From contig LCCV01000002.1 in the NCBI GenBank assembly GCA_000998135.1, positions 29,421 to 93,420 of the forward strand: DNA of 64,000 nt, read 5' to 3'. Below are positions 38,301 through 61,181 of the stretch, one piece after another. The notes beneath the pieces were generated by a model. It made no database searches and was not told the DNA's origin. It saw nothing but the letters and a program-made list of their open reading frames with translations. Position 1 is the first letter of the stretch, and the number at the start of each line of letters is the position of its first letter. Made by a program: the position numbers and the translations under genes. This DNA comes from Parcubacteria group bacterium GW2011_GWA2_42_14 (GTDB taxonomy: Bacteria > Patescibacteriota > Minisyncoccia > Sungbacterales > GWA2-42-14).

Positions 38301-39356
38301 GCGGTTTTTAAACCATAATTCCTTTGTTTGCTTTTCCTTTTCCACTTCGTCAAAAAAGAGCTTAACCACCCCGGCGCCGTTAATAACCGCCTGTTTTGAC
38401 AGCAAATTCCAGTAGTCGGTGAGGATGAGGTTGTCGTCGTCAGCAATAGAAAACTTGTTTTTGTTGTCTTTAGGATTCAACAAGTAATACCATCCAAAAG
38501 ATACATCCGACATTACAATATGATATTTTTTATCACTCAAAATACGATAACCAAATAATACGGATAACCCATTTGATAACTGTTCTTCTTCATAAAAACT
38601 TACATCTGGTTTAATAAATAAATCTGAAAAAATAGTATCTTTACTAAAAAAATTATTATTTGAATAGTTTGCCGTTGCATCAAAATAACTACTGATATTT
38701 GATAAAACATATGGTTTTTTACCGCTTTCTATAAGCTCGGCAACCGTATTTAAATTTTCCGGAGAAAATTTTCTGGTCCAATCTTCATAAGGACTTGAGT
38801 TTAAAACTTGAGAATGTTCAAACAGGCCAGCATGACCATCATTACGGGTATGTTCAGGCACAGTTGCGTCTTCCAAAAGATGTAATGTATGCCCCAATGA
38901 CTCCAATCCCCTATTTTTATCTACCCAGGCATAATCGTAAATCGCCCTTTCCCATGAATAATCCGAAGGCGATGAAAATAGGTCAAAAATTGAACCATAA
39001 GTTTTGTCGCGAAACACTCCGTCTTCCTGGGCTTGAGCCAAGGTGTTTTGCGACCAGTCTTTTGAGCTTTCCCAGCTCTCGCCAAGTATAGTAAGACCGC
39101 GATTATAAATCGGGTCGTAAAAATGGTGAAGCCATCTTGTCTCTTCGTCTTCATCAATGCTTCCATTCATTAAAATCGCAATCTCTTCGCTATTTAAGGC
39201 CTTTTCCTGATAATTGTGATTAAAAAAACGGCCGATTTCTTTGGTTAAAGCCGGATGAGTGGTTTGATCGTCATAGGCAAAAACAAGAATGGGCAGAAAT
39301 AAAACAAATACTGCCGCCCCAATCGCTGATATTGTGTGGGAATACTTCGATTGCAT
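35352..39356 (-). CDS. Very large (1334 aa) secreted surface protein with a lamin-tail domain, right-handed beta-helix/pectate-lyase-like repeats and Ala/Ser-rich repeated linkers.
   Basis: N-terminal signal peptide. LTD motif VIINEIAWAGTG...DEWIELKS...DLTGWQLK. Repeated NNTF-type beta-helix segments. Three repeats of PSDA[ED]ASAALGVA. Confidence 0.65.
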   Translation of the reverse strand: MQSKYSHTISAIGAAVFVLFLPILVFAYDDQTTHPALTKEIGRFFNHNYQEKALNSEEIAILMNGSIDEDEETRWLHHFYDPIYNRGLTILGESWESSKDWSQNTLAQAQEDGVFRDKTYGSIFDLFSSPSDYSWERAIYDYAWVDKNRGLESLGHTLHLLEDATVPEHTRNDGHAGLFEHSQVLNSSPYEDWTRKFSPENLNTVAELIESGKKPYVLSNISSYFDATANYSNNNFFSKDTIFSDLFIKPDVSFYEEEQLSNGLSVLFGYRILSDKKYHIVMSDVSFGWYYLLNPKDNKNKFSIADDDNLILTDYWNLLSKQAVINGAGVVKLFFDEVEKEKQTKELWFKNRSWWQKAWNWTSSLFSTLTNFSAENLDGQASSDSNTSYTAAIITSTESTTELSTPSDADASAALGVADDEIANFGSFYGESSRTISETSDIEPVPQIYGGSTSIDSETLDLAPAATSTPSVFLPMPTLGVATSTPPPPPPYALGDFIAGAGGEYVAPVQASTPSDAEASAALGVATTTTDTTPPDISLNIQECSDSFSQTDCVIATTTLTIFLESNSEDIASFFLNCAYRQKTSQPWQDCDDFLKFIEVEPPMGGSTSTASSTAPFATSFIFTASPNTFYEFRAKAKDKTGNESAEIVKILEINQMPVIINEIAWAGTGNSATTSEDEWIELKSRSEAEIDLTGWQLKFFKPGEPEPKIIINLSGKIAPKSYYLIERDDDNAVSIIKADFIASFGAGLDDNGMILKLEKGSTTASGEPSRTIDRTPELCPWDRSRPTGWCAGILLARFSMERIDPDAPGETQANWGTYFEEEIVNINKNAEDGPVYGTPKARNSVNYLIAVDGNLTGDRILTKENSPYLIRRAGLTIRDGAVLNIEPGVVIKIMPPNDYWAIINVYGKIFSRGAPEEPIVFTGIYDDEYGGDTNKDGVCDPLNASSTAICPQAGNWRQFTFNLESSGSEFLNTFFRYGGNMDNNLPFKRRAMIYITSAALSFKNSRLEHSLLRGLSCINCNANIENSVFYKNALEALIIAGSAPKVLNNTFLENGGGIFSSDIHGGEVRNNTFDKNGNVIIAESSPPLFGGNTVISDSPGVKGIIIRNNAGNDHVFAKDLPYIIDWGNYTFAGNISAEKGAVFKFMPNTGLTIAGAFSANGTLEEPVVFTSFYDDEYGGDTNNDATSSQPILGHWRGIDFWGSGEAVFDGAVIRYAGGEEERYNLAGIKAGGNEPLTIKNSVIEKNKFKGVWLASNASSTVTDTIFRDNLLPGKQYYALVISGSATTTISNLIFRDNGVGMAVDSSHHLINNGGIDFYDDSNVIKTIPPDLLP

Positions 39357-39505
39357 AAATTTATAAGTAGCAAAACACCACTAAAACGGCAAGGCCGGGC
39401 CTTTATAACGAAATCCGCTCTGCAAGCGGATTTAAGTTTAAAGATTTTGTGTCTGCGTATGTCTGCATTCTGTCTACGCCGGTCAGCGATGCGTGAAGCG
39501 CATAT

Positions 39506-39976
39506 TTATAAATCTAAAATTTTCCATTTATTGTTTACATTTTTAGCAACTAAAATTGTTAAGGCAACTTGTTTTTGGTCATTAGCAATACTAAAAGACA
39601 CCTGCCCATCAGAAATATCATTTTTATATTTCTTACGTTCTAAATCAAATGTCATTTCGGTAATTTTATTAGCGCTCTTAACATTATTTAAATTCCCTCT
39701 CCACTCCTCCTGCTTGTCCAGCACAAAGTATTTAGAGGCCAAATCAATGTCGCCGGTTTTCAGGGCCGAAATAAAAAGCTCAAGGGTTTCTTCGGGCGTG
39801 TCTCCGCCGTAAGTGTCGGCCATGTAGCGCTCTTTTTGGGCCAAAAGGTCCTGATATTTGTGGTATTCAGGCGAGGTTCTATAGCGATAATATCCTATGC
39901 CAAAGAAAATCCCGGCGCCGATAAGCACTATGACCAAAAACTGTAAAAAGTATTTAATTATGAGTTTTTTGTTCAT
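39506..39976 (-). CDS. Hypothetical membrane-anchored small protein.
   Basis: N-terminal TM helix (FLQFLVIVLIGAGIFFGIGYY), then a soluble domain with no recognised motif. Confidence 0.35.
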   Translation of the reverse strand: MNKKLIIKYFLQFLVIVLIGAGIFFGIGYYRYRTSPEYHKYQDLLAQKERYMADTYGGDTPEETLELFISALKTGDIDLASKYFVLDKQEEWRGNLNNVKSANKITEMTFDLERKKYKNDISDGQVSFSIANDQKQVALTILVAKNVNNKWKILDL

Positions 39977-40217
39977 AATATCAAATTATTATAATTGACT
40001 CAATTACTCTAAGTTACTCTGATTAAAACCAAAAGTCAAATGTCTTGTGTCTTGTGTAACTGTTGAATAATTGCCAAAAAGTTACCTCCTGAACTTTTCG
40101 CAAGACAACTTTTTGGCTTTAAATAAGGTAACCCCTCGACTCTGCTCGGGGGGTAAGAGGATTATTAATAACCTCTGTGGATAACTTTCGGTTTATTTTC
40201 GGTATTAAGGTGTTAAT

Positions 40218-41687
40218 ATGAAAATGATGCTAACTTTACGGCAAAAACAAATACTGGATTTTGTTGCCACCTACGCGCATAAACGGAAAATTGCCCCCTC
40301 GCTTGAAGAAATCAAAAGGCATTTTCGGCTAAAATCGGTTTCAAATATCCATCAGCACCTCAATGCTTTAGCGGCCAAGGGCTATTTAAACAGGTTCAAA
40401 AACCGGAAACGCGGCATTGAGCTCCCCCAATCCGAACGTCTCGTAAAAATACCGCTCTTGGGAGAAATTGCCGCAGGCAAACCGATAGAAGCAATAGAAC
40501 ATAAAGAGTTTATCGCGGTCCCCGAGTCAAAATTGGCTTCAGGCGGGGAAATTTACGCCCTTCGCGTAAAAGGAGACAGCATGATTGACGAACATATAAA
40601 TAACGGGGACACAATTTTAATAAAAAGGCAGAATGTCGCCGAAAACGGCCAAAAAGTGGTAGCGCTCCTTAACGGAAATGAAGCAACGCTTAAAACTTTT
40701 TACAAAGAAAGGGGGCAGATAAGATTGGAGCCGGCCAATAAAAATTATCAACCCCTCATAATAAAAAGGGGGCAGGAGTTTTCTTTGCAGGGCGTTTTAC
40801 TTGATGTAATAAAAACAAATGAGGATGAATGGCAAACAAAACCTTTTACATTGCCAGCCGAAGAAGGAAAAGGGCGACAAACTATTACTTTTCAAAAAAT
40901 CCCTCCTTATTTTGAAGAACGAAATTTTATTTTATATCATGGAGATTGTGTCGGCGTTCTTGCACAACTGCCGCCAGAATCGGTTGATATGATTTTTGCC
41001 GATCCTCCATACAATCTTTCCAATGATGGATTTTCGCTTCACGCCGGCAAAAGAGTTAGTGTAAATAAAGGAAACTGGGATAAGAGCAAGGGGTTTAAAG
41101 ATGACTACGATTTTCATTATCGCTGGCTCAATGCCTGCAAAAATATTCTAAAGCCCAACGGCACTCTTTGGGTAAGCGGAACATACCACTCAATTTATCA
41201 ATGCGGCTACGCGCTGCAATCTCTTGGTTATCACATATTAAATGATATTTCATGGTTCAAACCAAACGGCTCGCCGAATTTGAGCTGCCGTTATTTTACG
41301 GCCTCACACGAAACTTTGCTCTGGGCGCGAAAAGACAAAAAAGCGAAACATTTTTTCAACTATAATTTAATGAAAAAAGGGAATTGGCCGGAAGATTTTA
41401 TTAAAAAACCAAACCTGCAAATGCGTTCGGTTTGGGCGATTTATCCGCCTAAAAAGCCGGAAAAAACTTTTGGCAAACACCCAACGCAGAAGCCGCTAGA
41501 ATTATTAAAGAGAATTATCCTTGCATCAACAAACCCCGGCGCCGTCATTCTTGACCCGTTCACCGGAAGTTCCACAACGGGAATTGCCTCGGAAATAATA
41601 GGAAAAAGAAAGTTTATCGGAATTGATACTGATAAAAAATATCTCGAACTATCCGTAAAACGCTTTAAAGAGATTATGACGACATAA
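40218..41687 (+). CDS. Fusion protein: complete LexA-type repressor (wHTH plus S24 autopeptidase) fused to a beta-class (DPPY...FxGxG) N6-adenine/N4-cytosine DNA methyltransferase.
   Basis: N-terminal 200 aa: LTLRQKQILDFV... wHTH, cleavage-site region LLGEIAAGKPIEA, catalytic Ser in VKGDSMIDE and Lys in GNEATLKTFYK. C-terminal 270 aa: motif IV MIFADPPYN (41001-41012), then ...WVSGTY..., and C-terminal motif I ILDPFTGSSTTGIA. This is a single uninterrupted 489-codon ORF. Confidence 0.8.
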   Translation: MKMMLTLRQKQILDFVATYAHKRKIAPSLEEIKRHFRLKSVSNIHQHLNALAAKGYLNRFKNRKRGIELPQSERLVKIPLLGEIAAGKPIEAIEHKEFIAVPESKLASGGEIYALRVKGDSMIDEHINNGDTILIKRQNVAENGQKVVALLNGNEATLKTFYKERGQIRLEPANKNYQPLIIKRGQEFSLQGVLLDVIKTNEDEWQTKPFTLPAEEGKGRQTITFQKIPPYFEERNFILYHGDCVGVLAQLPPESVDMIFADPPYNLSNDGFSLHAGKRVSVNKGNWDKSKGFKDDYDFHYRWLNACKNILKPNGTLWVSGTYHSIYQCGYALQSLGYHILNDISWFKPNGSPNLSCRYFTASHETLLWARKDKKAKHFFNYNLMKKGNWPEDFIKKPNLQMRSVWAIYPPKKPEKTFGKHPTQKPLELLKRIILASTNPGAVILDPFTGSSTTGIASEIIGKRKFIGIDTDKKYLELSVKRFKEIMTT

Positions 41688-41703
41688 GCAATCTCTACAA
41701 ACC

Positions 41704-42279
41704 CTATCTTCTAAGGGGTAGGGCCGACTCTAACACTTCTGTATAGTGTTTTTTGCCGTCAATGTAGTCCCTTAATGTAAAGAGGAGATTTCGGAACATA
41801 TATGCACCCGGAGTCGCTTTTTCGTTTTTGGAAAAAAGTTCAATGACCGTAGCCACATAATCAAGCGAAAGGGTATAATTCTGCTCAATATGGGCATAAC
41901 GTTTGGTAATTTCTTCCACCGTTTCAAGTTTTAAATCATCTCGCTTCTTAACGGTAGTGAAAGGCGTGACACGGTCATAATAATCGATGTAATATTGTAT
42001 GATTTCTCGAACTTCTTTTCTATATTCCGGAATCTTAAGAAGTAAATCAACCACCCAATATGTATGCGGCGGGAGTACGGGTTTTTTATCGAGACCGGGC
42101 ACTAACACCTTAAGCTTAAAATCCAGTTTCGGATTCGCCCCGCGGCTACCTTGAAAAAGGGCGACAAGCGTCCCATCTTTTATTTTATATGTCTTGAACG
42201 CGCGCTCTTTGGGCGATAATTGCCAAAGATGCGTGCCGTCATAATATTTAAGATTATAAACAAGAGGAGTTTGCGGCAT
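41704..42279 (-). CDS. Hypothetical protein (191 aa), convergent with the LexA-MTase gene.
   Basis: ORF with good coding appearance. No recognised motif. It has a weak D...E-x-K-like segment (VVDLLLKIPEYRK). Confidence 0.35.
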   Translation of the reverse strand: MPQTPLVYNLKYYDGTHLWQLSPKERAFKTYKIKDGTLVALFQGSRGANPKLDFKLKVLVPGLDKKPVLPPHTYWVVDLLLKIPEYRKEVREIIQYYIDYYDRVTPFTTVKKRDDLKLETVEEITKRYAHIEQNYTLSLDYVATVIELFSKNEKATPGAYMFRNLLFTLRDYIDGKKHYTEVLESALPLRR

Positions 42280-42357
42280 AACCTCTCTAGTGTAATCTTT
42301 TCAAACGAAATGATCAACCGCCTCTCCGCTCCCTTGCTCGTTGCTCGCCCCGAATAT

Positions 42358-43176
42358 TTAGAAGACCGGCGATAAAGTAGGGAAAGTTTCAAAAAGACTT
42401 TTAATTTTGGGTAGCGGTGATCGGTTGAATGGCGGATAAGCAAAAGCGAAAAAAAATTTTGCAAGAGAACGGCGGTTTAATAAAACCGCAACCAAATTAG
42501 CAAAAGTAAGCAGGGTATTTATTCTTCCGTAATCACCCTCTGCATTCTCATGGCCCATGGTATGCATTTTTACATCTTCATTTAACGCCAAAACGTCTAA
42601 AAAATACAAATACACATCTATAGGAATGCCCTCAATTTCTGGCAATCTTTTTTTGAGAACAGCTAAGGAAATTTTCGGAGGCACATATCTCCATTTATTC
42701 TCCTTATTTTTCATATGGTCTAACATAAAAGCCATTCGATAAATCAACATTCCAAAAATTTCTAAGCCGAAGATGTCGGCGCGCATAAGATGCCCTATTT
42801 GCTCAAACATATCTCCAAACGTTAAATCCTTACCAATCTTAACTCCTGCTTGCATGATAAAAGGATTCATATCATTTTTATTATTTGTGATTTTACCTGT
42901 TTTATAATGCTTACGTTTAAAATCGGGGGCCGCTTCTTTTCCCGGCTTGCCAACAGCAACAACAAAATCATGGCTCTTATAAATCTCCGTTGTTATTCTA
43001 TGCGCCTGGTCTTTGCCCCTCGGCCATCCTATTGCCTCTTGCAGCATTTCTATTCGAAGGGGCCTGGCAGTTGAGCTTAATTTATTAAGAGTAATTAAAC
43101 AAAGTTCTTTATTAATTGCCAAAATGGTTTCTTCCGGTATGCCGAGAGCTAAATAATATTCTTCGGTTATTTTCAT
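42358..43176 (-). CDS. Hypothetical protein (272 aa).
   Basis: ORF only. No recognised domain. It has a possible Rx6H segment (RMAFMLDH) but nothing diagnostic. Confidence 0.35.
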   Translation of the reverse strand: MKITEEYYLALGIPEETILAINKELCLITLNKLSSTARPLRIEMLQEAIGWPRGKDQAHRITTEIYKSHDFVVAVGKPGKEAAPDFKRKHYKTGKITNNKNDMNPFIMQAGVKIGKDLTFGDMFEQIGHLMRADIFGLEIFGMLIYRMAFMLDHMKNKENKWRYVPPKISLAVLKKRLPEIEGIPIDVYLYFLDVLALNEDVKMHTMGHENAEGDYGRINTLLTFANLVAVLLNRRSLAKFFFAFAYPPFNRSPLPKIKSLFETFPTLSPVF

Positions 43177-43180
43177 ATTT

Positions 43181-44041
43181 TTATTTTTTTAGCGCGTCAA
43201 TCTCTGCTGCGACTGCCTTATTATGGGGGTCTAAAGCAAGGACTTTTTGGTAATACTCAAGGGCTTTGGGGAAATTGCCCTGTTCTTTATAAAAACGGGC
43301 GAGGTAGCTTAAAAGGGTTTGGTTGTCGGGGTTGGCGGCGAGACCGGATTCAATTATTTTTATAATTTTGTTGCTTCTCGACTCGCCTGCGGGTTCGCTC
43401 GAAGAATATAAATCGGCAAGGGCTGTATATGGATAAATATCGCCCGGAGCATTCTCTATGGCCTTCTTATAGCTTAATTCGGCCTTAGGATAGTCCTTAA
43501 GATATAAAGCGTATAATCCACCCAGATTAGCAAAAGAGGTGGAATTTTGGGGCCTGATGAGTGAGGCATACTCCCAGGCGTCCCGCGCTCCCAAATAATC
43601 GCCGAAAAATTTCTTAATTACCCCGGCTCTTAACCAATTATCAAGATTATCCGGGCTTTCGGAAACGAATTTGGCAATGTCCAAAAGTTCATTTCTTAGC
43701 TTGGTTTTGACATCTTCAGGATAAGCTAAAACGACGCTTTTATCTTCGTTTACGGTTCCGATTGGGGCGCCATTGTATTGAGGAAGCGTAGGTAATTCTG
43801 TTGGTTTTACAACTTCACCGGACAAGTCACGACCTTCTTTGCGGACAAGGTCGGGACTTGATTGACCGACAAGACCCGGTCTTTTTTCCTCAAGGTCGGG
43901 CCTTAAAACGTCACCGAAAAAATAATAGCCGGAGGCGATAAAGGCCAAAAATAATAAAATAACGAGGTCGCGGAGGAGTAGATTTTTTGTTGAATTGGAC
44001 ATGTTTTTATTAATAGGTATGACTTCGACGAAATCAGGCAA
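43181..44041 (-). CDS. TPR-repeat protein with N-terminal TM anchor.
   Basis: N-terminal hydrophobic helix. C-terminal TPR-like repeats (WEYASLIRPQNSTSFANLGGLYALYLKDYPKAELSYKKAIE...ALEYYQKVLALDPHNKAV). Confidence 0.6.
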   Translation of the reverse strand: MPDFVEVIPINKNMSNSTKNLLLRDLVILLFLAFIASGYYFFGDVLRPDLEEKRPGLVGQSSPDLVRKEGRDLSGEVVKPTELPTLPQYNGAPIGTVNEDKSVVLAYPEDVKTKLRNELLDIAKFVSESPDNLDNWLRAGVIKKFFGDYLGARDAWEYASLIRPQNSTSFANLGGLYALYLKDYPKAELSYKKAIENAPGDIYPYTALADLYSSSEPAGESRSNKIIKIIESGLAANPDNQTLLSYLARFYKEQGNFPKALEYYQKVLALDPHNKAVAAEIDALKK

Positions 44042-44384
44042 TAAAATGATACTCCCTAAGCGAGCCCTGCGAGTCGAAGGGTTTCCTTGAATGTATGCCT
44101 TCGACCCGCTTCGCCAAAGCTTCAGCGAGGCGAGTCAGCGAGGCGAGCAAGCTCGAAGAATAAGCAGAGATTACTTCGTCGGTACGCCTCCTCGCAATGA
44201 CGCCGGAATAGTACCTTATAAAAATTATCATTAATAAAGAGATAAATCAATGGTCGTCATCATATATTGCCTGAACTTGTTGAAGGCATACCTTAATGGT
44301 AAACCCTTCGACTCGGCTCAGGGAATAATATTTATAAACAGACCGTCCGAAAACTATAGAACTTCAAAAAACTCGAACAATAAT

Positions 44385-44416
44385 AAAACCAGCCCCGAAA
44401 GGGGGCTGGTTTTATT
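44385..44416 (-). terminator. Rho-independent terminator downstream of the 1205-aa surface-protein gene.
   Basis: ccagcccc-gaaa-gggggctgg makes an 8-9 bp GC-rich stem, flanked by an A-tract on + and a T-tract on - (ggttttattattgttcgagtttttt in the gene sense). It lies 45 bp past the stop. Confidence 0.6.
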
Positions 44417-44460
44417 AGAATCGTCTAGAGAGGCCACAAGACTCTTAAGACGTTCAGAGG

Positions 44461-47400
44461 TTAGTAGGAAACAACTTCAGCTGCCATGTTCGTCGCGGGC
44501 AGACCTACCACGCCAAATCCATTGGTCCAGTCCTTGCTGGAAAGCGCAGCGGTAGTCGTAGCGTTTGGAGACCAGATTAAGTCATTATGGGTTTGATCAG
44601 CTATACCCGCAGTTGAAGGAGTAGTTGATGCCTGACCCATAATCGGGTTGGTAGCAGACGGTGTTCCGGGTATCAATCCAGGATATGCTCCATCACCTTC
44701 AAGTTGTGTTGATACGGATGAGTTGGTGGAAACCGAGGAAACGGTTGCCACAACATCAAAGTATCTGGTTGCGCCCGCGGGAACTTGAATAACATCTGTA
44801 GGTACTCCTAGAACACTTCCTGACTGAGTTACCGGGTCAAAGTAGACGCTAAACTGGTTACCACCGCCATACAAAACGTTATCCTCAGTTCCAGCGCTAA
44901 ACCATTCTTTCTTATTTTGAACCGGAATCGCGGTATTGTTCAACAAACCGGAATTGGCATAAGCCGCGATTGAGAAGAGAATATCGCTATAACCATACAC
45001 ACGCAAATTCTGCACAGTTGCCGAAGTCGTTGACATCACAAAGGTGAATTTAGCCAATCCTATATCGCCGTGGGAATCCGCGGTTACCTTGAACCTCAAC
45101 AAACTGACAGTACCTGCGGCGAGTTTATTCGTCGACAAGGAAACTTTAGCAAATGTCGGGTAGGACTTGAACATCCTTACGCCGTTGGAAGCTGTGCTTG
45201 AAACCGCGGCAGTATCAGCGGTCTTTGTCTGAATGGTAGAACCGGATGATTGCCCAACGCCTTCCGTTCCCCTGCTGCCTCCGTCAAAATCAACTACAAC
45301 CAAAGCTCCTTCAGTTCCAACCTGCGAAGTGCCGATTGCGCTCAAATCGCCTTTTACGGTCAGAGTCTTATCCCCATCTTTGGGAATCACGAAATCGGCC
45401 GTAAGGGTTGAAGTTGAATAATCGGTACCGGTAAACAAACCTTCTCCGACCTTGGTTGAACCGTCCCACAAAGTATATTTCACAATATCCGCGGGAGCGT
45501 TATTGGTCGTGGAAGAAAGTTTCAATGCAAGTTTTTGAAGCGTAATGGCTTCGTTGGTCGCGTGTAAGTTGAGTAACGCCAACGGAACATCCGTAGTGTT
45601 TCCGGCAACTATCGCGTAAGTCGGACTTGAAGCGCTAAGCGATACGGACAATGAGCCACCTGCAACCAAAGTCATTTCATTCTGATCGTCGGTGGAAGCG
45701 AGATGAGTTACGGTTGCCGCTTGCCCTGATGTAACACCAGTCGCGGAAAGAGTACTTGCCGCAATCTGCCATTCTGCCTGATTACTAGCAGTCAAGTTTG
45801 CAGGAATATTGCACTTGATGGCCAAGGTCTTGGTTGTTCCTTTGGGAATAATCAAGTGGCTATCAAGCGTAAAGGTTTTTGCTCCTTCAGTAGCTATATC
45901 AACAACATTGGTGCCGGTATTCAGGGCGGTTGCTCCGTCCCAAACTTGGCAACCAGTCAAATCTGTCGTATCTGCTCCGGTATCATCCGCAAACGTAAAG
46001 CTAAGGGTGGTAAAACGAATATCCTCGCCGGAAGCCGTTGCGTCAAACACCGGCTTGGCAAAGGTAAATCCTTGTATACCCATAACTACGTTTTGCGCGG
46101 GCGGGTCGGAAGACAAAGTAACAGTAACAACCGCGCTTTTTACAGTCATAGTATTTCCGGTAACTTGTCCAGCTGGAGTCGGGGTAACCGCTGTTCCGGT
46201 AACGGCACCGGTTCCGTTCCTCCAATCCGTTCCCGGAGTGGTGGAAGCGATAATAGTGTCATTATTTTCAAAACCGGAAGTCGCGGCTAATTTGCCCTTT
46301 AAGGTATAAAGGCCTTTTCCAATGGGGAAAGTAATGGAATCGGTAAAGGTTACATATCCATGAGCAACTAAGCTGTTTACGGTATTTCCCGCTTGTCCGT
46401 CAACAGGACCGGCAACAACCGCTCCTGACGGGCCAACCAATACTATATTGTCAATGTCGTCAACATCAATTTCCGCTCCTCCGTCAGAATCAGAAAGAGT
46501 AAAGCGGAAAGAAGTTTCTGGAATCGTTACCGCCTCTCCCTTTACTTCCACATCAAATCCACCCAAGGGCTGGTCAGCAAGAGTTACAGCAACATTTTGC
46601 GATGCTACCGCTGTTGATTTGGATACAACTATGGAGCCAGCGCCGATATTAATGGCATTGGCATTATAAGCCGGGCTAGCTGAATCAAATCCAGCTGTGC
46701 CAGTATCGGCAGGCAATAAGCCATATCCATACTGGGCTCCGACTACATAAAGGTCGTCATGGCGGTAAATGTCAAAATCAACTGTTCTCGCGGAACCGGA
46801 AACAATATCGCCTTTTACGTAAATTTCAGCGGTATTGCCTTTCAAAACTTTGACTCCAGTTCCAAAAACAGAGGTGTAATATTTTCCATCAGAACTTACG
46901 GTCGTGTCATAAGCAGTTCCGGCAACATAAACCTTGACATTAGCAAGGTCGGCCGTGGCCGCGGAACCGGATTGGTTGAATTTGACTGATTTAATCCAGA
47001 TGTCCTCCCCTGCTCCTGCTGTTCCTTTAATAGAAGAGAACACATAACCGGTTGTTCCAACTTCTTTGGTAATACCGGTTGTTGAAGGATCAAGCGGACC
47101 CCTGATAAGGTCAAATCCACCTACAAGGCCTGATGTTTCGTTCATGGTCTGACCGGTGCCTGCAACCGGAAGTCCGGTAACTGTGGCTGAACCAGCGCTC
47201 ACCGCCACAACTGTCAAGCGGATAACCTGTCCGGAATAACCGGTGGTTGCTCCGCGATTAGCGGCAATAGTCATGGTTTTAGAAGTTCCTGCTTTTACGG
47301 TGAAGGGCTCGGTCAAGACCGCCTGATGAAGGGAATTCAAGGTCTTGGAAAGACCTAATTGAAGTCCGTCTTCACCAAGAATAACGATTCCGGAAAGAGC

Positions 47401-48078
47401 CGCATCCTGTCCAATGCCCTGACGTTCAACTGTTACGGAGCTGACAGTTACATCACCGTCAGAACCGGCAGTAAACACTACACTGGTAAATGGAACGCGA
47501 GTTACACTCAACGGAACCAAGGCCGCGGCAGGCTGTGCACCTGCTGATACGCTAAGACCTGTTCCTGATGGAACTGTTGGCGTTGTTGGTGTTTCTGTGG
47601 TTGGCGTTGTTGGTGTTTCTGTGGTTGGCGTTGTTGGAGTTGTTGGAGTTGTTGGAGTTACCGGAGCCACTGCCATTGAATTATACTTTGCCTGGGAAAT
47701 TGGACCAAAGTATCCGACGGCCGGAGAAACCCCGTTTGCCGCCTGCCAAGCAGCTACTGCCGCTTGAGTGACAGAACCGAAATATCCGGTGGCACCCCCC
47801 GCATAAGTGAAGTGACCTGTTGAAGTTAAATAATTCTGCAAGCATGTTACAGCATCCCCTCTTGAACCGACTGTAAGAGCGCTAGTGAAACCGCAAGCGG
47901 CTCCGCCGCCACCTCCTCCGCCGGAAAGGGCGACGAGTTGTGCTTGAAGGGCCGTGATTTGAGCTTGCAACTGGGCAATGAGATCTGCCGTTGACTGTTG
48001 CGCCAATGACGCGACAGGGGTCAGAACCAAAGCTCCGGTAAGCCAAACCGCGGCTGAGGTTGAAATAAATTTATTCAT
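44461..48078 (-). CDS. Giant (1205 aa) secreted cell-surface protein with an N-terminal peptidoglycan-binding-like domain, a PTT-repeat linker and long Thr/Gly/Val-rich beta-repeats.
   Basis: Signal peptide MNKFISTSAAVWLTGALVLTPVASLAQ. A Gly run. PG_binding_1-like GSRGDAVTCLQNYLTSTGHF...GYFGSVTQAAVAAWQAANGV. (PTTPTTETPTT)n linker. The remainder is Ig-like beta-rich. Confidence 0.65.
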   Translation of the reverse strand: MNKFISTSAAVWLTGALVLTPVASLAQQSTADLIAQLQAQITALQAQLVALSGGGGGGGAACGFTSALTVGSRGDAVTCLQNYLTSTGHFTYAGGATGYFGSVTQAAVAAWQAANGVSPAVGYFGPISQAKYNSMAVAPVTPTTPTTPTTPTTETPTTPTTETPTTPTVPSGTGLSVSAGAQPAAALVPLSVTRVPFTSVVFTAGSDGDVTVSSVTVERQGIGQDAALSGIVILGEDGLQLGLSKTLNSLHQAVLTEPFTVKAGTSKTMTIAANRGATTGYSGQVIRLTVVAVSAGSATVTGLPVAGTGQTMNETSGLVGGFDLIRGPLDPSTTGITKEVGTTGYVFSSIKGTAGAGEDIWIKSVKFNQSGSAATADLANVKVYVAGTAYDTTVSSDGKYYTSVFGTGVKVLKGNTAEIYVKGDIVSGSARTVDFDIYRHDDLYVVGAQYGYGLLPADTGTAGFDSASPAYNANAINIGAGSIVVSKSTAVASQNVAVTLADQPLGGFDVEVKGEAVTIPETSFRFTLSDSDGGAEIDVDDIDNIVLVGPSGAVVAGPVDGQAGNTVNSLVAHGYVTFTDSITFPIGKGLYTLKGKLAATSGFENNDTIIASTTPGTDWRNGTGAVTGTAVTPTPAGQVTGNTMTVKSAVVTVTLSSDPPAQNVVMGIQGFTFAKPVFDATASGEDIRFTTLSFTFADDTGADTTDLTGCQVWDGATALNTGTNVVDIATEGAKTFTLDSHLIIPKGTTKTLAIKCNIPANLTASNQAEWQIAASTLSATGVTSGQAATVTHLASTDDQNEMTLVAGGSLSVSLSASSPTYAIVAGNTTDVPLALLNLHATNEAITLQKLALKLSSTTNNAPADIVKYTLWDGSTKVGEGLFTGTDYSTSTLTADFVIPKDGDKTLTVKGDLSAIGTSQVGTEGALVVVDFDGGSRGTEGVGQSSGSTIQTKTADTAAVSSTASNGVRMFKSYPTFAKVSLSTNKLAAGTVSLLRFKVTADSHGDIGLAKFTFVMSTTSATVQNLRVYGYSDILFSIAAYANSGLLNNTAIPVQNKKEWFSAGTEDNVLYGGGNQFSVYFDPVTQSGSVLGVPTDVIQVPAGATRYFDVVATVSSVSTNSSVSTQLEGDGAYPGLIPGTPSATNPIMGQASTTPSTAGIADQTHNDLIWSPNATTTAALSSKDWTNGFGVVGLPATNMAAEVVSY

Positions 48079-48079
48079 A

Positions 48080-49453
48080 ATTTTTTATCTAAGTTAATTA
48101 TAACTTTTCCAAAAATTTTTTCCGTGGTTCGATAAACTCACCACGAGAAGAAAAAGATGGAAAAGAAATTTACAATCACGATTCATAACCTCTTCGACTT
48201 TACCCGATATTCCAAAGGAAAATTTAGGGTAAAAAAGATTTAAATCGTGAATAACAAAATCAAATTAATAATAATCAATGTTTTGGAGTCAAGTCACCCT
48301 CATGCGTCTTGAATCATGAATCTTGAAACTTGAAACATGAATTACGAAACATGAGATGGTCCGCTCCATCTTGTCATATTTAAATATTTTAATATTTAAA
48401 TATTCAAAGCGGGAGGGTCGACCGGACTTTAAAACTCCTAAATCAAAAACAAATTAAGAATTTACTAATTTTTTCTTTTGCATCCGAACCTAAACCAAAA
48501 CCATCATCAAACAGAAAAGTAATTTTTAATTATCAAGGTTCTTGCCGTTCAGAATCATGAAACATGAAACATGAAATTTCAATCGTTTACAACCAAATTT
48601 CGAAATTAAAGCAACCAAGTTATACTATCAATTCCGAAATTTAATTGCAAATTATATTGTGAATAATGGTGGTTCGATAAACTTACCATAAATTCGGTTT
48701 GCTCACCGCAAGTGTTAAATAACTACAAACAAGCCAAAAATTGGCTCATTTAATTTAAAAAAATTAAGTCATAACTATCTTAAATTATTATATATCTCCG
48801 CAAATGGTTCAACTCTGCTTACCACAAGTATATTATAAACCCACTAAAAATCACTTGCAAATAGGCATTGTGGATAAGTGCTACAGCTTCAAAACCAAAA
48901 TATAGTACTTATATTGCTTAATTTTCAAGCATTTTTGCCATTTCGGCAATAACAGCAATTTAACGGCAAAAAACCAACTTATCTGATATCTGATATTATT
49001 ATTATAAATCATATAAAAAAGCAAATAAACTCTGTTGTGGATAAGTTAATTCTATACAAAAATGGCATAAAAAACCCCATTTGCAACTATCCTTTTTACC
49101 TTTCACGGCATTCAAAGCTCATAGGAGCAGATTTCACGCGAATATTAACACTGATTAACGCGGAAATAAATAACCGGGAATGGCCAAAATCTATCTTAAA
49201 GCCTTAAAAAATAGCTTATTTTATTAAAATTAACCTAATTATTCTGATAAATTCACCTAATTCCTAATTACCTAATTCACCTAATAAAATTTCTAATGCA
49301 CTAATACTTAATTCTTAATTTAAAATTTTGGAATTTGGTTATTTTATTAGAAATTAGGTGAATTAGACAATTAGAAATTCTTTAAGCAAACTCAAAAATC
49401 AGCAAAATTTATCCTTCGACAAGCTCAGGCAATAACCATTTTTGATATGGGTT
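48080..49453. other. 1.37-kb gene-free AT-rich region with short tandem repeats, two perfect DnaA-box nonamers and two covarying hairpins.
   Basis: No ORF of 60 aa or more on either strand. tgtggataa occurs at 48869-48877 and 49036-49044. ggttcgataaact loops sit at about 48125-48150 and 48668-48695 with different stems. catgaaa heptad repeats are present. Confidence 0.5.
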
Positions 49454-50323
49454 CTAAACAATGCTCTCCAAATGTTCTCTAAAACCTTTTTTCACTTCCG
49501 GATGACGAAGACCGAAATCCACGACAGCCTTAAGGAGGCCGAGTTTATCTCCGCAATCATATCTGATTCCTTTGAATTCATAACCGTATAAATTTTCACC
49601 TTTGGCAAGCATTCTTTCAAAAGCATCAGTTAAAAATAATTCCTTACCGGGTTCATATTTTACTTTGGCAAGTTCGTCAAATACCGCGGGCGTCAAAATA
49701 TATTTTCCAACGATTGACAGATTAGACGGAGCCTCCTCTATTGTAGGTTTCTCAATTATTTTCTCTACTTCGTATGTCCTTGATGAAATTTTTTTGCCGC
49801 CAATAACACCGTATTTGTAAACCATTTCTTTGGGAACCCGTTCTAAAGCAAATACCGGCTTATTAAATTTTTCAAAAACGACAGCAAGCTGTTTAAGACA
49901 TGGTATCTTTGAATATACGACATCATCTCCATAAAGGACAGCGACAGGTTCATCGCCAATTAAATGACGGGCCTGCAACAAAGCGTCACCAACCCCAAGC
50001 GGTTCTTTCTGACGGACAAAAGCAAAACGAGCAAGTGATGAAATTTTTCTTATTTCTTTAGCCAAACCATGTTTACCTTTCTTTGTCAGAAAAAATTCCA
50101 GCTCTCCGGCATGGTCAAAATGATCCTCAATAGCGCGCTTGCCCCTGCCGGTAACAAATATGATTTCCTTTATTCCGGAATCAACAGCTTCCTCAACCAA
50201 ATACTGAATAACCGGCTTATCCACAATAGGAAGCATTTCTTTTGGCTGGGCTTTGGTGGCAGGAAGAAAGCGGGTGCCGAAACCAGCTACAGGGATGATG
50301 ACTTTTTTGATTTTAGAAACCAT
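49454..50323 (-). CDS. galU: UTP--glucose-1-phosphate uridylyltransferase.
   Basis: KKVIIPVAGFGTRFLPATKAQPKEMLPIVDKPVIQYLVEEA is the canonical GalU N-terminus. Confidence 0.85.
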   Translation of the reverse strand: MVSKIKKVIIPVAGFGTRFLPATKAQPKEMLPIVDKPVIQYLVEEAVDSGIKEIIFVTGRGKRAIEDHFDHAGELEFFLTKKGKHGLAKEIRKISSLARFAFVRQKEPLGVGDALLQARHLIGDEPVAVLYGDDVVYSKIPCLKQLAVVFEKFNKPVFALERVPKEMVYKYGVIGGKKISSRTYEVEKIIEKPTIEEAPSNLSIVGKYILTPAVFDELAKVKYEPGKELFLTDAFERMLAKGENLYGYEFKGIRYDCGDKLGLLKAVVDFGLRHPEVKKGFREHLESIV

Positions 50324-50520
50324 TTAAATCTAATAAATCCAAATCTCAAAATCCCAAATAAATTCAAACTTCAAAATTCAAGTATAAAAACTTAATTCTT
50401 TAACAATTTGGATTTTGGTATTATTTGGGATTTGATGCTTTGGATTTTGAATTTTTAAACCCGGTTTGTCGCTTATAAACGACACCTGAAATGTCGCTTA
50501 TAATAATGTCGTTTATAAAT

Positions 50521-55168: not shown

Positions 55169-57181
55169 ATGAAAAAAGCAAATTTAATAGCAATCTTAAT
55201 ACTTTCCTTCCAATTTATTCTAATGCTTGCTTCTTCATGGAACGATTCGGCCATTATGGACGAACTGGCGCATATTCCGGCGGCTTACTCTTATGTTTCC
55301 AAAATGGATTACCGGCTAAATCCAGAACATCCTCCGCTAATAAAAGACCTCTCGGCTCTTCCTCTTCTTTTTTTCAGGCCTAATTTTCCTACAGATGTCA
55401 AATCCTGGACAAGGGATAATAACGGCCAATGGACACAGGGCGCGATTTTTCTTTACGAATCAGGAAACAATCCCGATAAAATTATTTTTTGGTCGCGCCT
55501 GCCGATAATGCTTTTATCTGTATTCATGGGCTGGCTGATTTTTTCATTCATCAAAAAAAGATATAACGATAAAATAGCCCTGATGACCCTTGTTTTGTTC
55601 GCTTTTTCCCCGACTTTTCTCGCGCATTCCCGTTTTGTCACCACCGACTTGGCGGCCGCTTTCGGATTTTTCATAGGCATTATCGGCCTCATAATGTTTC
55701 TTGAAAAACCAACTTTGAAAATGACTATGATTGCGGGAATATTTTTTGGCGTCGCCCAACTTCTTAAATTTTCTTTAATACTGCTTATCCCGATTTTTTT
55801 AATAATTATTTTAATTTGGTTCTTCGTTGAAAAATCATATTATCGCGGAATTATCAAATTTCCTTTTTTTATCATACAAATTCTTGGAAAAACTGTTTTA
55901 ATATTTGCCGTTGGCGGCGTGGTTATTTATGGAGTATACGCAATTCATGTAATAAATTATCCGGCTTCCTCAATTGAACCGGATGGGAGGATTTGGACCA
56001 AAAAAGAATTAACCGAGGTTGTGCGATTACCGGAACCGCAAAGAACAGAAAAAATCGCAACCGTTCCACTTTCCCAAATGCGCGATACCGTTTATATATT
56101 GTCATCTTTTGCCGGAGGACCGGATCCGGAAGAATTTGCCTGCGACCCCAAATCAAACGCCGACCTAAAACGAAGAATAAGGTGCCTTGCGGAATTTACC
56201 ATCTGGGCAACGGATAAACCCCTTTTCCGACCCATGGCCCAATTCCTTCTCGGAATAGAAATGGTAATGCAGCGCTCTTCAGGAGGAAATACCGCATACT
56301 TCTTGGGTAAAGTTTCAGCCGGAGGGTGGAAACACTACTTCCCGGTTCTATATATATTGAAAGAGCCGTTAGCGCTTCATATCTTAACCTTAACCGCCCT
56401 GCTTTTTGCAACTTGGCGGGTTTTCAAAGGAAACAAATCATTACGGACGCTTAAAGAATGGATTCATGAAAACTTTTTTGAATTTGTTTCCTTGTTTTTT
56501 ATCGCGTTTTACTGGCTGTATTCAATTCAAAGCCCTTTGAATATCGGAATAAGGCACGTTCTTCCCACATTTCCCTTTATTTATTTTTTGGTGTCCAAAG
56601 AAATTTTTAGATGGCTCTCACTTCAAAAAAATGCCTCTCCTGAAACATGGTTTGAATGGCTCATTACAATTTATAAAAAATATATTGCCTCAATTCCAAA
56701 ATATATTTTTATTTCAACAATGCTTTTATGGCTGGTTTTTGACACTGTTTTTGCCTTCCCTAATTATCTTTCTTATTTTAATGAATTAGCCGGTTCTTGG
56801 AGTTCCAAAAAGATTACCCTGAACATCAAAACAGCCATTGCCAATGGACACGAAATTGCCGTTGATTCCAATTACGATTGGGGACAAGATTTAAAACGGC
56901 TGGCAAAATACGCCGAAGACCACCGCATAAAAAAAATCGCCTTGGATTATTTTGGCGGAGGTTCTCCACGATATTATTTAGGAGATAAATTTGAACCGTG
57001 GTGGTCTGCCAAAGGGCAATCGCACGGCTATTTCGCGATTTCAGCAACATTTTTACAGGGAGCGCACGGAAAACCAGCCAACGGATTTATCCGCAACCCG
57101 CAAGATTCCTACGAATGGCTAAGGCCCTTCCGGCCGATTGACCGAGCGGGAGAGTCAATATTTATTTATAAATTACCTTAA
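55169..57181 (+). CDS. Polytopic membrane glycosyltransferase, PMT/ArnT-like (GT39/GT83).
   Basis: N-terminal loop with DELAHIPAAYSY (DE motif of GT-C enzymes). More than 10 TM helices and a large C-terminal soluble domain. Confidence 0.65.
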   Translation: MKKANLIAILILSFQFILMLASSWNDSAIMDELAHIPAAYSYVSKMDYRLNPEHPPLIKDLSALPLLFFRPNFPTDVKSWTRDNNGQWTQGAIFLYESGNNPDKIIFWSRLPIMLLSVFMGWLIFSFIKKRYNDKIALMTLVLFAFSPTFLAHSRFVTTDLAAAFGFFIGIIGLIMFLEKPTLKMTMIAGIFFGVAQLLKFSLILLIPIFLIIILIWFFVEKSYYRGIIKFPFFIIQILGKTVLIFAVGGVVIYGVYAIHVINYPASSIEPDGRIWTKKELTEVVRLPEPQRTEKIATVPLSQMRDTVYILSSFAGGPDPEEFACDPKSNADLKRRIRCLAEFTIWATDKPLFRPMAQFLLGIEMVMQRSSGGNTAYFLGKVSAGGWKHYFPVLYILKEPLALHILTLTALLFATWRVFKGNKSLRTLKEWIHENFFEFVSLFFIAFYWLYSIQSPLNIGIRHVLPTFPFIYFLVSKEIFRWLSLQKNASPETWFEWLITIYKKYIASIPKYIFISTMLLWLVFDTVFAFPNYLSYFNELAGSWSSKKITLNIKTAIANGHEIAVDSNYDWGQDLKRLAKYAEDHRIKKIALDYFGGGSPRYYLGDKFEPWWSAKGQSHGYFAISATFLQGAHGKPANGFIRNPQDSYEWLRPFRPIDRAGESIFIYKLP

Positions 57182-59385: not shown

Positions 59386-59553
59386 TATAACACAGGTAGA
59401 AAACTAAAAAAATAAGCCTAGTTATAAAGGCTAAAACAAATTCCAAATCCCAAGCACCAAATCCCAAATTCAAACTTCAAAATTCAAATCTAAAAAATTT
59501 TTAACATTTAAATTTTGATACTATTTGGGATTTAAGATTTTGAAATTGGGATT

Positions 59554-60600: not shown

Positions 60601-60665
60601 ATGCATGAAACATGGAACATGCAACATGGAACATGAAAACTATAAACATGCCACTTGCCGCACGC

Positions 60666-60842
60666 CGCTTGTTATTAAAAACACCGCTTATGAGCGGGTC
60701 TTAGATAAAATATTTTATCTTTCCCCGTTCGGTCTTCCTTCGCACGAAGCTTCGGAGGACGAGGATGGATTTAGCACCACATTAACACCTTTTGTTAATA
60801 GGCTGCTGGCGGTTCATTGAGCCAAAACTCTCCCCGCGCTCT
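60666..60842 (-). ncRNA. SAM-I (S-box) riboswitch with terminator in the metK leader.
   Basis: Minus-strand sequence: tttatcaagag (P1 5') ... ggggagagttttggctcaatgaacc ... gtggtgctaaatcc (conserved GUGCUAAAUCC) ... cgaagcttcgtgcgaagg (P4 hairpin) ... aaagataaa (P1 3'). It is followed by hairpin cccgct-cata-agcgg plus a T-tract. Confidence 0.6.
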
Positions 60843-61181
60843 TGATAAATTATTCAATTTTTATAAAACCATCATACTATGAAACGCGAAATGCGCAAGA
60901 AAAGTTATCCACCCCGTTAGAAGTTCGAAAATACACATTGATTTAAAAAATGACACAAAGCGAAAGCGGCTTACCCCGTTAGAAATCCAGCAACATGTCA
61001 ATTACGGCATAACGACGCGGAGCGAAACGGCTCCGCCTTACGTCTTTCTGAATAAAATAAGCTTTTTAAAGATTTCTAACGGGGCTTACGCCTTATGCCT
61101 GTGTCTGAATATGGCCACCCTTAAACCTCTAACGGAGTAAACAAAAACAAAAGGCCCCGAAATGAGGCCCAAGACAAATTA

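What the first reader, a model, noticed from the sequence alone, without database searches (positions are those of the whole stretch)
48080..49453. 1.37-kb non-coding AT-rich island with DnaA-box nonamers and a covarying hairpin motif
In a genome with almost no intergenic space, this stretch has no ORF of 60 aa or more on either strand. It contains two perfect E. coli-type DnaA boxes (TTATCCACA, as tgtggataa at 48869-48877 and 49036-49044, same orientation). It has tandem heptads (catgaaa)n at 48300-48350 and 48555-48580 and AT-rich iterons near 49240-49380 (cacctaatt / aattaggtg inverted). There are two hairpins with an identical 13-nt loop ggttcgataaact but different, compensating stems: cgtgg/ccacg at about 48125-48150 and atggt/accat at about 48668-48695. 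That is covariation, suggesting a selected RNA or protein-binding structure. Candidates are a replication origin or DnaA-titration locus, a long structured ncRNA, or a decayed mobile-element or prophage junction.
Basis: partly seen in the sequence, partly recalled or inferred. Interest (0 to 1): 0.6.

Follow-up and report, generated by a model that had tools for sequence, protein, structure and literature searches.

The report
Surface-protein gene promoter and leader
This 1.37-kb gene-free stretch is not a replication origin but the control region of a giant cell-surface protein gene in an uncultured Sungbacterium, with DnaA-type boxes just upstream of tandem promoters and a long structured leader carrying an rRNA-style boxA-like signal, an arrangement shared by about a dozen related Parcubacteria.

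Summary
The 'covariation' between the two hairpins is not in register, and the origin reading fails: GC skew and gene orientation do not change here, and no dnaA or dnaN lies in the 64 kb.

The gap sits between a galU-like gene and a 1205-aa peptidoglycan-binding surface protein gene, both on the minus strand. That protein family is Parcubacteria-wide. All 11 independent homologous loci I fetched also have a long non-coding gap (373 to 1154 nt) upstream of the gene.

Four things are conserved in those gaps:
- **DnaA boxes.** Perfect TTATCCACA boxes: 14 in 8.2 kb against 0.10 expected.
- **Promoters.** Each box lies 6-10 nt upstream of a promoter-like -35/-10 pair. The window has three such modules.
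- **A boxA-like 12-mer**, GAACTTTGAAAA, in the leader of 9 of 12 loci, with one chance hit in 1.9 Mb of other loci.
- **A hairpin** with a (G/A)TCGA(A/T) apex about 50 nt before the start codon.

The heptad arrays are slippage-prone repeats common in intergenic spacers of this lineage.

Best reading: tandem DnaA-box promoters plus a long antiterminated, structured 5' leader. This is a new member of known kinds. DnaA binding and Nus binding are inferred, not shown.

The parts
49245..49390 (-). Long AT-rich hairpin just after the galU-like stop codon, made of inverted (AATTAGG)-type heptad arrays. It may act as a terminator or insulator for the upstream gene. It is not conserved in relatives.
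   Evidence: Inverted repeats I1/I2. RNA fold -36 kcal/mol, z = -5.67.
49036..49044 (-). DnaA box 1 (TTATCCACA) of promoter module 1.
48996..49030 (-). Promoter-like -35/-10 pair of module 1. It is the weakest of the three (TTTATT-N17-TATAAT, 9 of 12 matches).
   Evidence: The module aligns with modules 2 and 3.
48869..48877 (-). DnaA box 2 (TTATCCACA) of promoter module 2.
48832..48860 (-). Promoter P2: TTGCAA-N17-TATAAT, starting 8 nt after box 2. The geometry matches L011 module 1.
48726..48752 (-). AGCCAATTTTTGGCT hairpin or palindrome followed by a T-tract, lying between modules 2 and 3. It is terminator-like and its sequence is conserved in L171, L176 and L011.
   Evidence: Fold z = -3.41.
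48669..48688 (-). It abuts box 3.
48658..48666 (-). DnaA-type box 3 (TTATTCACA; fits TTATNCACA) of promoter module 3.
   Evidence: It is orthologous to L171 module 2 through the shared TTTGCAAWTAAATTTCGG.
48622..48650 (-). Promoter P3: TTGCAA-N17-TAGTAT, the last promoter before the leader.
48552..48576 (-). (TTTCATG)n heptad array in the leader. One unit is deleted in the strain variants L007 and L009.
48530..48541 (-). boxA-like element GAACCTTGATAA, inside a 44-nt block that is 89% identical to L171.
48415..48430 (-). Conserved leader block AAAGTCCGGTCGACCC. Its role is unknown.
48308..48354 (-). Second heptad array (TTTCATG/TTTCAAG-type). L176 has an unrelated (ACTTAGA)n array at the homologous place.
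48112..48156 (-). It is the local form of the conserved (G/A)TCGA(A/T) leader hairpin.
44461..48078 (-). The gene served by this region: a 1205-aa secreted protein with a PG_binding_1 domain. The family is Parcubacteria-wide.

Best explanation
Window 48079-49453, read on the minus strand, is the transcriptional control region and long 5' leader of the 1205-aa peptidoglycan-binding surface protein gene (44461-48078).

**Anatomy (shown)**
- Three diverged copies of one module: a DnaA-type box (TTATCCACA twice, TTATTCACA once), 6-8 nt, then a sigma-70-like -35 (TTGCAA) and -10 (TATAAT).
- A small hairpin plus T-tract (AGCCA-T5-TGGCT) between modules 2 and 3.
- A leader of about 540 nt from the last promoter, P3, to the start codon. 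It carries a boxA-like element about 75 nt in, a conserved GTCCGGTCGA block, two heptad arrays, and a hairpin with an AUCGAA apex 55 nt before the start codon.

**Mechanism (inferred)**
- DnaA, or whatever protein reads TTATCCACA, binds at about -45 of each promoter and sets transcription of the surface protein gene.
- The AGCCA hairpin may attenuate transcripts from the upstream promoters.
- The boxA-like element recruits NusB/NusE, so that RNA polymerase is not terminated in the long untranslated, AT-rich leader.
- The start-proximal hairpin stabilises the mRNA or controls translation.

The anatomy and its conservation are shown here. Transcription starts, DnaA binding, Nus binding and the role of the hairpin are inferences.
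For: **Position and synteny**
- The gap lies between two co-oriented genes.
- The order ClpB, hypothetical, (GalU), gap, surface protein, TPR protein recurs in relatives whose surface protein is 40-56% identical.
- All 11 independent homologous loci have a non-coding gap of 373 to 1154 nt upstream of this gene.

**DnaA boxes**
- Perfect TTATCCACA occurs in 10 of 12 gaps: 14 boxes in 8188 nt (1.71 per kb), against 6 in 183 kb elsewhere in the same loci (0.033 per kb).
- The expected number is 0.10, giving P of about 1e-25.
- 13 of the 14 are in the gene-sense orientation.
- L181 and window box 3 carry TTATTCACA in the same geometry.

**Promoters**
- Every one of 15 boxes is followed, after 6-10 nt (13 of 15 at 7-9 nt), by a -35/-10 pair matching 8-10 of 12 consensus positions.
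- Random positions in the same gaps average 5.6 matches, and only 1.8% reach 9.
- The composite TTATCCACA-N8-TTG occurs only in loci holding this gene, among 183 loci.

**boxA-like element**
- GA[AC]C[CT]TTGA[ACT]AA occurs once, in sense and downstream of the last promoter, in 9 of 12 gaps. It occurs nowhere else in those loci.
- It occurs once more in 1.9 Mb of other loci, antisense inside a coding region.
- L011 GAACTTTGAAAACTTAAT matches the Mycoplasma 16S-23S spacer primer GTTCTTTGAAAACTGAAT at 15 of 18 positions (PMC4312986). That spacer carries boxA (PMC3979950).
- The positions C4 and T6, mutated in the functional test of PMC5725501, are kept.

**Leader structure**
- The RNA from P3 to the ATG folds with z = -4.83.
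- (G/A)TCGA(A/T) lies in the last 130 nt of 11 of 12 leaders: 8.3 per kb against 0.46 per kb.
- It sits at the apex of hairpins whose stems are unrelated in sequence.
- Median z is -3.1 against -0.38 for background windows, P = 8e-4.

**Non-coding**
- tblastx matches fall in all frames, only at blocks conserved at nucleotide level, and no ORF is conserved.

**Precedent**
- S-layer genes have two promoters and long stabilising 5' UTRs (PMC3666127).
- boxA is known on non-rRNA transcripts (PMC5725501, PMC7665894).
- DnaA is known as a transcription factor (abstracts listed).
Against: - No transcript data exist here. Promoter-like hexamers are no more frequent in this AT-rich gap than in shuffles (8 found, 8.5 expected), so the promoter calls rest wholly on cross-genome conservation.
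- Module 1 has a poor -35.
- The boxes are single and 120-210 bp apart, whereas E. coli DnaA prefers pairs of closely spaced sites (abstract of PMC11317965).
- A protein other than DnaA could read the motif.
- One locus, L176, has the box inverted.
- The boxA-like motif has AA where known boxA has YU at positions 2-3. It is missing in 3 of 12 loci. It could not be compared with the lineage's own rRNA boxA.
- About 400 nt between the galU stop and box 1 (49054-49453) are not conserved. Apart from the long hairpin they have no assigned role.
- Several conserved blocks remain unexplained: GTCCGGTCGA, CTTGACTCCAA, and copy 2 of the 20-nt repeat.
Confidence: 0.7

Rival explanations
1. Same promoter and leader architecture, but TTATCCACA is not read by DnaA. 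It would be the site of another transcription factor, or an UP-like element fixed at about -45.
For: The spacing to the -35 is very tight and 13 of 14 boxes share one orientation. That is more typical of a promoter-proximal activator site or an UP element than of DnaA boxes, which work in either orientation. The boxes are single rather than clustered.
Against: The 9-mer is exactly the classical high-affinity DnaA box (established knowledge). The variants seen (TTATTCACA) stay within TTATNCACA. L176 has it inverted at a similar distance. Boxes also occur away from this geometry: window 40176-40184, and the tandem TTATCCACAggTTTTCCACA in L179.
Confidence: 0.2
2. The gap holds one or more independent non-coding RNA genes. 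Examples would be a 60-110 nt sRNA made from P1/P2 and ended at the AGCCA hairpin plus T-tract, or a long structured RNA, rather than only a leader of the downstream mRNA.
For: A terminator-like hairpin lies downstream of the upstream promoter(s) and is conserved in four loci. The region folds well below shuffled controls.
Against: The sequence between promoter and hairpin is not conserved. There is no Rfam family in the window or in 11 relatives. The hairpin stem does not vary, so it gives no covariation and could equally be a DNA palindrome. The conserved blocks stay colinear right up to the start codon of the gene.
Confidence: 0.12
3. A DnaA-titration or DnaA-reactivation locus, like datA, DARS or the Bacillus DnaA-box clusters. 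It would modulate replication initiation rather than transcription.
For: Two perfect boxes and one near-perfect box lie within 390 bp, and they are conserved in relatives.
Against: Relatives keep only one or two boxes, always locked to a promoter at a fixed distance. There is no dense cluster and no specific box arrangement. The boxes are 120-210 bp apart.
Confidence: 0.06
4. The chromosomal replication origin (oriC).
For: The DNA is AT-rich (GC 0.289) and has DnaA boxes.
Against: There is no GC-skew sign change, and cumulative skew falls monotonically through the locus. Flanking genes are co-oriented and 40 of 45 genes are on one strand. No dnaA or dnaN lies in the 64 kb. Homologous gaps in relatives reach 42-45% GC and carry a single box.
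Confidence: 0.02
5. A decayed gene, or the scar of a mobile element or prophage.
For: The stretch is long, non-coding, AT-rich and repeat-rich.
Against: A gap at the same syntenic place occurs in 12 of 12 lineages, with colinear conserved blocks. There is no conserved reading frame, no phage match, and no tRNA or integrase nearby.
Confidence: 0.02

Closest known systems
DnaA-regulated promoters (DnaA as transcription factor: E. coli dnaA and nrdAB, the B. subtilis DnaA regulon)
   Same: A consensus DnaA box lies in the promoter-upstream region of a gene unrelated to replication. The box is conserved in orthologous promoters.
   Different: The target is a giant cell-surface protein gene in Parcubacteria. 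The boxes are single and sit at a fixed distance of about 7-9 nt from the -35, repeated in tandem promoter modules. Binding and regulation are untested.
boxA / Nus-factor antitermination leaders (rrn operons; non-rRNA cases such as suhB and CRISPR arrays: PMC5725501, PMC7665894)
   Same: A 12-nt motif close to the Firmicute/Mollicute-type boxA lies in sense orientation, 50-190 nt downstream of a promoter and ahead of a long untranslated stretch.
   Different: Positions 2-3 are AA instead of YU. It precedes a protein-coding gene. No boxB or boxC was recognised. The lineage's own rrn boxA is unknown.
S-layer gene expression signals (Lactobacillus slpA: two promoters and a long stabilising 5' UTR, PMC3666127)
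   Same: Tandem promoters and a long, strongly folding 5' leader precede a large secreted surface protein gene.
   Different: The leader here is much longer (about 0.3-0.75 kb). It carries DnaA boxes and a boxA-like element. That the protein forms an S-layer is not shown.
oriC, datA, DARS and DnaA-box clusters
   Same: They contain TTATCCACA boxes. The window copy is AT-rich.
   Different: There is no skew switch, no dnaA or dnaN, no box cluster, and no conserved unwinding element. The boxes are coupled to promoters.
Cyanobacterial STRR heptanucleotide tandem repeats (from memory)
   Same: Short tandem arrays of 7-nt units lie mostly in intergenic DNA, with many different unit sequences.
   Different: The phylum is different and the units are AT-rich. 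This is a resemblance only; no homology is implied.

Membership tests
Chromosomal origin (oriC) | GC-skew sign change and switch of gene orientation at the locus | tested here: not met
   Skew is negative on both sides and cumulative skew is monotonic. Both flanking genes and 40 of 45 genes are on the minus strand.
Chromosomal origin (oriC) | Cluster of several DnaA boxes next to an unwinding element, usually beside dnaA/dnaN | tested here: not met
   There are 2 perfect boxes and 1 relaxed box spread over 390 bp. Relatives have 1-2. No Bac_DnaA or beta-clamp domain was found in the window. An unwinding element was not specifically searched for.
DnaA-regulated promoter | Consensus DnaA box within or just upstream of a promoter, conserved in orthologous promoters | tested here: met
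   14 perfect boxes in 12 homologous gaps against 0.10 expected. Each is 6-10 nt upstream of a -35/-10 pair.
DnaA-regulated promoter | DnaA binds the site and expression depends on DnaA | not testable with these tools
   This needs EMSA, footprinting or ChIP, plus reporter assays.
boxA / Nus antitermination leader | boxA consensus in the transcribed strand downstream of the promoter | tested here: inconclusive
   GAACTTTGAAAA-type motif in 9 of 12 leaders, with one chance hit in 1.9 Mb. It matches GYTCTTTAANA (PMC5725501) and GTTCTTTGAAAACT (PMC4312986) except at positions 2-3 (and position 8 for the former).
boxA / Nus antitermination leader | Same motif in the organism's rRNA leader or spacer; NusB/NusE binding | not testable with these tools
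   No rRNA gene is present in the window or in any fetched locus.
datA / DARS / DnaA-box cluster | Dense, specifically arranged set of three or more boxes that acts independently of a promoter | tested here: not met
   The boxes are 120-210 bp apart and each is tied to a promoter. Several relatives have a single box.
Known structured RNA families (Rfam 15) | Covariance-model match at the gathering score | tested here: not met
   No match in the gap even at E <= 10 apart from chance miRNA/snoRNA hits. None in 11 related loci.
S-layer-type expression region | Tandem promoters and a long, stable 5' UTR ahead of the major surface protein gene | tested here: inconclusive
   The predicted tandem modules are conserved. 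The leader has z = -4.83 and a conserved hairpin. Transcripts were not observed, and S-layer formation by the protein was not tested.

The most novel reading that the evidence does not exclude
Across Parcubacteria, the replication initiator DnaA would directly gate transcription of the major cell-surface (S-layer-like) glycoprotein, through a box fixed at about -45 of tandem promoters. The resulting mRNA would use an rRNA-type Nus/boxA antitermination signal and a GUCGAA-apex hairpin in a 0.3-0.75 kb leader. This would be a compact circuit coupling envelope production to the replication cycle in ultra-small cells that have few transcription factors. The leader elements would form an undescribed cis-regulatory RNA class.
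Probability: 0.3. Interest if true: 0.65.

Novelty: new member of a known kind. Interest (0 to 1): 0.42.

Why it matters
Almost nothing is known about promoters, leaders or regulation in Parcubacteria, which are uncultured.

- This locus gives a concrete, conserved cis-regulatory layout: box, -35/-10 pair, boxA-like element and start-proximal hairpin. It sits ahead of what is probably one of the most highly expressed genes of these cells.
- It yields testable hypotheses: DnaA acting as a regulator of the envelope, and Nus antitermination acting on an mRNA.
- It offers candidate strong expression signals for future genetic tools in this group.
- It is also a caution. Perfect DnaA boxes in AT-rich non-coding DNA are not enough to call an origin.

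Tried and rejected
- **Origin.** Rejected on skew, gene orientation and absence of dnaA/dnaN.
- **Known RNA families and tRNA/tmRNA.** Nothing in the gap or in relatives. An RNase P-like reading of AAAGTCCGG was considered and dropped, because there is no Rfam hit and the block is absent from several loci.
- **Hidden or decayed coding sequence.** No conserved frame.
- **Phage or mobile origin.** No match.
- **Near-identical strain contigs L001-L010.** They are 99.3% or more identical, so they say nothing about conservation. They did reveal the one-heptad indel.
- **GalU-based scans.** The genome scan gave one syntenic relative (L011). The metagenome scan gave none closer than 63%. The useful relatives came from the surface-protein family.
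- **Promoter scan alone.** Not above chance.
- **Within-window covariation of the two hairpins.** Rejected as out of register.
- **Formal covariation test of the GUCGAA hairpin.** Not attempted. Loop and stem lengths differ too much among only 12 loci for a fair alignment.
- **Check against a Parcubacterial rRNA boxA.** Not possible, because no rRNA is present in any sequence held.

Full report
**1. What is in the sequence**

The interval 48079-49453 has no ORF of 60 aa or more. The longest are 56 and 47 aa. Its GC content is 0.289, against roughly 0.36-0.45 elsewhere in the window.

- The two perfect TTATCCACA boxes (as tgtggataa on the plus strand) at 48869-48877 and 49036-49044. Two boxes in 1375 nt compare with 0.018 expected (P = 1.6e-4), and 4 of 20000 shuffles reach two.
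- The heptad arrays at 48310-48354 and 48552-48576.
- The AT-rich inverted repeats at 49259-49285 and 49353-49379.
- The two hairpin sequences, which share a 20-nt repeat with one mismatch at 48124-48143 and 48669-48688.

The claimed covariation between the two hairpins does not hold in a fixed register. TGGT...ACCA belongs to the shared repeat, and the extra pairs come from flanks offset by 3 nt.

The window is also not free of intergenic space. About 15.6% lies outside gene-sized ORFs, and several gaps are 500-800 nt.

**2. Not an origin**

- GC skew is negative on both sides, and the cumulative curve falls monotonically through the locus.
- Both flanking genes, and 40 of 45 gene-sized ORFs, are on the minus strand.
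- Pfam scans of the gene-sized ORFs found no DnaA or beta-clamp domain. They found mostly glycosyltransferases, sugar-nucleotide enzymes and large secreted proteins.
- No Rfam family or tRNA lies in the gap.
- There is no phage similarity.

**3. Context**

The organism is a Candidatus Sungbacteria (Parcubacteria) MAG population from aquifer metagenomes. On the minus strand the gap follows a galU-like nucleotidyltransferase gene (49454-50323). It precedes a 1205-aa protein with a signal-peptide-like N-terminus and a PG_binding_1 domain (44461-48078).

That protein has full-length homologues (42-56% identity among the 120 best listed) in many Parcubacteria lineages. The search returned 602 hits at E <= 1e-20.

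Ten contigs carrying the identical GalU are 99.3% or more identical to the window, so they are uninformative.

**4. Comparative evidence**

I fetched 11 independent loci that encode a homologue of the surface protein: L011, L171, L174 and L176-L183. In every one the gene is preceded by a long non-coding gap, 373 to 1154 nt, against 1375 nt in the window. The gene is usually followed by a TPR protein.

*DnaA boxes and promoters*
- Perfect TTATCCACA occurs in 10 of 12 gaps: 14 boxes in 8.2 kb, or 1.71 per kb.
- The rest of the same loci hold 6 boxes in 183 kb, or 0.033 per kb.
- The expected number in the gaps is 0.10, P of about 1e-25.
- 13 of the 14 are in the gene-sense orientation.
- Every box, including the TTATTCACA variants in L181 and at window 48658-48666, is followed after 6-10 nt by a -35/-10 pair matching 8-10 of 12 consensus positions.
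- Random positions in the same gaps average 5.6 matches, and 1.8% reach 9.
- The window therefore has three box-promoter modules, at 49036, 48869 and 48658. They align with one another. The third is orthologous to the second module of L171.
- A bare promoter scan of this AT-rich DNA is not above chance. The promoter calls rest on conservation, not on the hexamers.

*boxA-like element*
- Downstream of the last promoter, 9 of 12 leaders carry one copy of GA[AC]C[CT]TTGA[ACT]AA, in sense. The window copy is at 48530-48541.
- The pattern is absent from the rest of those loci.
- It occurs once more in 1.9 Mb of other loci, antisense inside a gene.
- It resembles boxA. The gamma-proteobacterial consensus is GYTCTTTAANA, and boxA also acts on non-rRNA transcripts (PMC5725501). 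The consensus drifts with phylogeny, and boxA protects long untranslated CRISPR transcripts from Rho (PMC7665894).
- The Mycoplasma 16S-23S spacer primer GTTCTTTGAAAACTGAAT (PMC4312986) lies in a spacer that carries boxA (PMC3979950). It matches L011 GAACTTTGAAAACTTAAT at 15 of 18 positions. That this primer lies on the boxA itself is my inference.

*Other colinear conserved blocks*
- AGCCA-T5/6-GGCT plus a T-tract between promoter modules. It is terminator-like.
- AAAGTCCGGTCGAcC, 70-125 nt after the boxA-like element, in five loci.
- CTTGACTCCAA.
- None is in Rfam.

**5. The hairpin**

- (G/A)TCGA(A/T) lies in the last 130 nt of 11 of 12 leaders: 8.3 per kb against 0.46 per kb elsewhere.
- It usually sits at the apex of a hairpin whose stem sequence differs from locus to locus.
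- L174 and L179 differ by one two-sided U-A to C-G change in the inner stem. I read this directly from the sequences.
- Windows centred on the motif fold with median z = -3.1, against -0.38 for other windows of the same gaps (P = 8e-4).
The element lies at 45-59 nt in L174, L177, L178, L181 and L182.
- So the idea of a selected hairpin is right, for cross-genome reasons rather than because of the second copy.
- Copy 2 abuts box 3. It may be a by-product of duplication.
- The whole leader from P3 to the ATG folds with z = -4.83.

**6. The heptads**

- Period 7 is the commonest tandem-repeat period in the window (12 of 29 arrays) and across the 12 sources (27 of 72).
- Almost all the window's arrays lie in or beside intergenic spacers.
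- Unit sequences differ between arrays. L176 has an unrelated (ACTTAGA)n array at the homologous place in its leader.
- The only indel in the gap among strain variants is the loss of exactly one heptad at 48571-48577.
- They are slippage-prone simple repeats typical of the lineage, not iterons specific to this locus.

**7. Interpretation**

The best-supported reading is a promoter-plus-leader region. Tandem sigma-70-type promoters are each preceded, at a fixed short distance, by a DnaA-type box. They drive a long, structured and probably antiterminated 5' leader of a major surface-protein mRNA.

This parallels three known cases:
- DnaA acting as a transcription factor (abstracts).
- boxA-dependent protection of long untranslated RNA (PMC7665894).
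- The two promoters and stabilising 5' UTRs of S-layer genes (PMC3666127).

The anatomy, its statistics and its conservation are shown. Transcription starts, DnaA and Nus binding, and the function of the hairpins are inferred.

Weak points:
- There is no expression data.
- The boxes are single and widely spaced.
- The boxA-like motif departs from the consensus at positions 2-3, and no rRNA comparison was possible.
- The 400 nt next to galU are not conserved and are unexplained apart from a long AT-rich hairpin (z = -5.67).

**8. Verdict**

The origin, titration and mobile-element readings are not supported. The locus is a new member of known kinds of regulatory element in a poorly known lineage, and its interest is moderate.

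Noticed in passing
window, e.g. 18317-18337, 19116-19175, 21449-21493, 22508-22568, 50360-50381, 59437-59489; also L011 3567-3681, L176 3591-3810: Tandem arrays of 7-nt units, each with a different AT-rich unit, are the commonest tandem-repeat class in this window and in related Parcubacteria loci (27 of 72 arrays). They lie almost only in intergenic spacers. One array varies by exactly one unit between strains (48571-48577).
   Followed up: partly
window 60712-60851 (-) and 60604-60638: A SAM-I riboswitch lies upstream of the metK gene (59554-60627, -). A (CATGGAA)n heptad array overlaps the metK start codon region, giving several ATGs spaced 7 nt apart.
   Followed up: no
window 40218-41687 (+), box at 40176-40184: A single ORF fuses a LexA DNA-binding domain, a Peptidase_S24 domain and an N6/N4 DNA methylase domain. 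A perfect DnaA box lies 33 nt upstream of its start.
   Followed up: no
window 47576-47666: 24-nt and 9-nt tandem repeats encode the Pro/Thr-rich linker of the surface protein. They vary in copy number between strain variants (L007 lacks 24 nt; L009 differs further).
   Followed up: partly
window 56003-56016: A 14-nt stretch inside the PMT_2 mannosyltransferase gene (55169-57181, +) is missing in contig L001. There the gene is called as a shorter product, which suggests a frameshift polymorphism.
   Followed up: no
L176 8431; L182 7220; L179 10489: Further DnaA box plus promoter-like modules lie upstream of other genes in relatives. One is a tandem pair, TTATCCACAggTTTTCCACA. This hints at a small DnaA-box regulon in Parcubacteria.
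   Followed up: partly
window about 37000-48000: This stretch has higher GC (0.45-0.52) and near-zero GC skew. It holds the two giant secreted proteins (1334 aa with LTD and beta-helix domains; 1205 aa with PG_binding_1), in contrast with the steady negative skew elsewhere.
   Followed up: no
window 48094-48186 (-): A 30-codon ATG ORF, preceded by GAAGAGG, spans hairpin 1 and stops 15 nt before the main start codon. It could be an upstream ORF. Its conservation was not examined specifically, and the tblastx comparison showed no coding-type conservation.
   Followed up: partly
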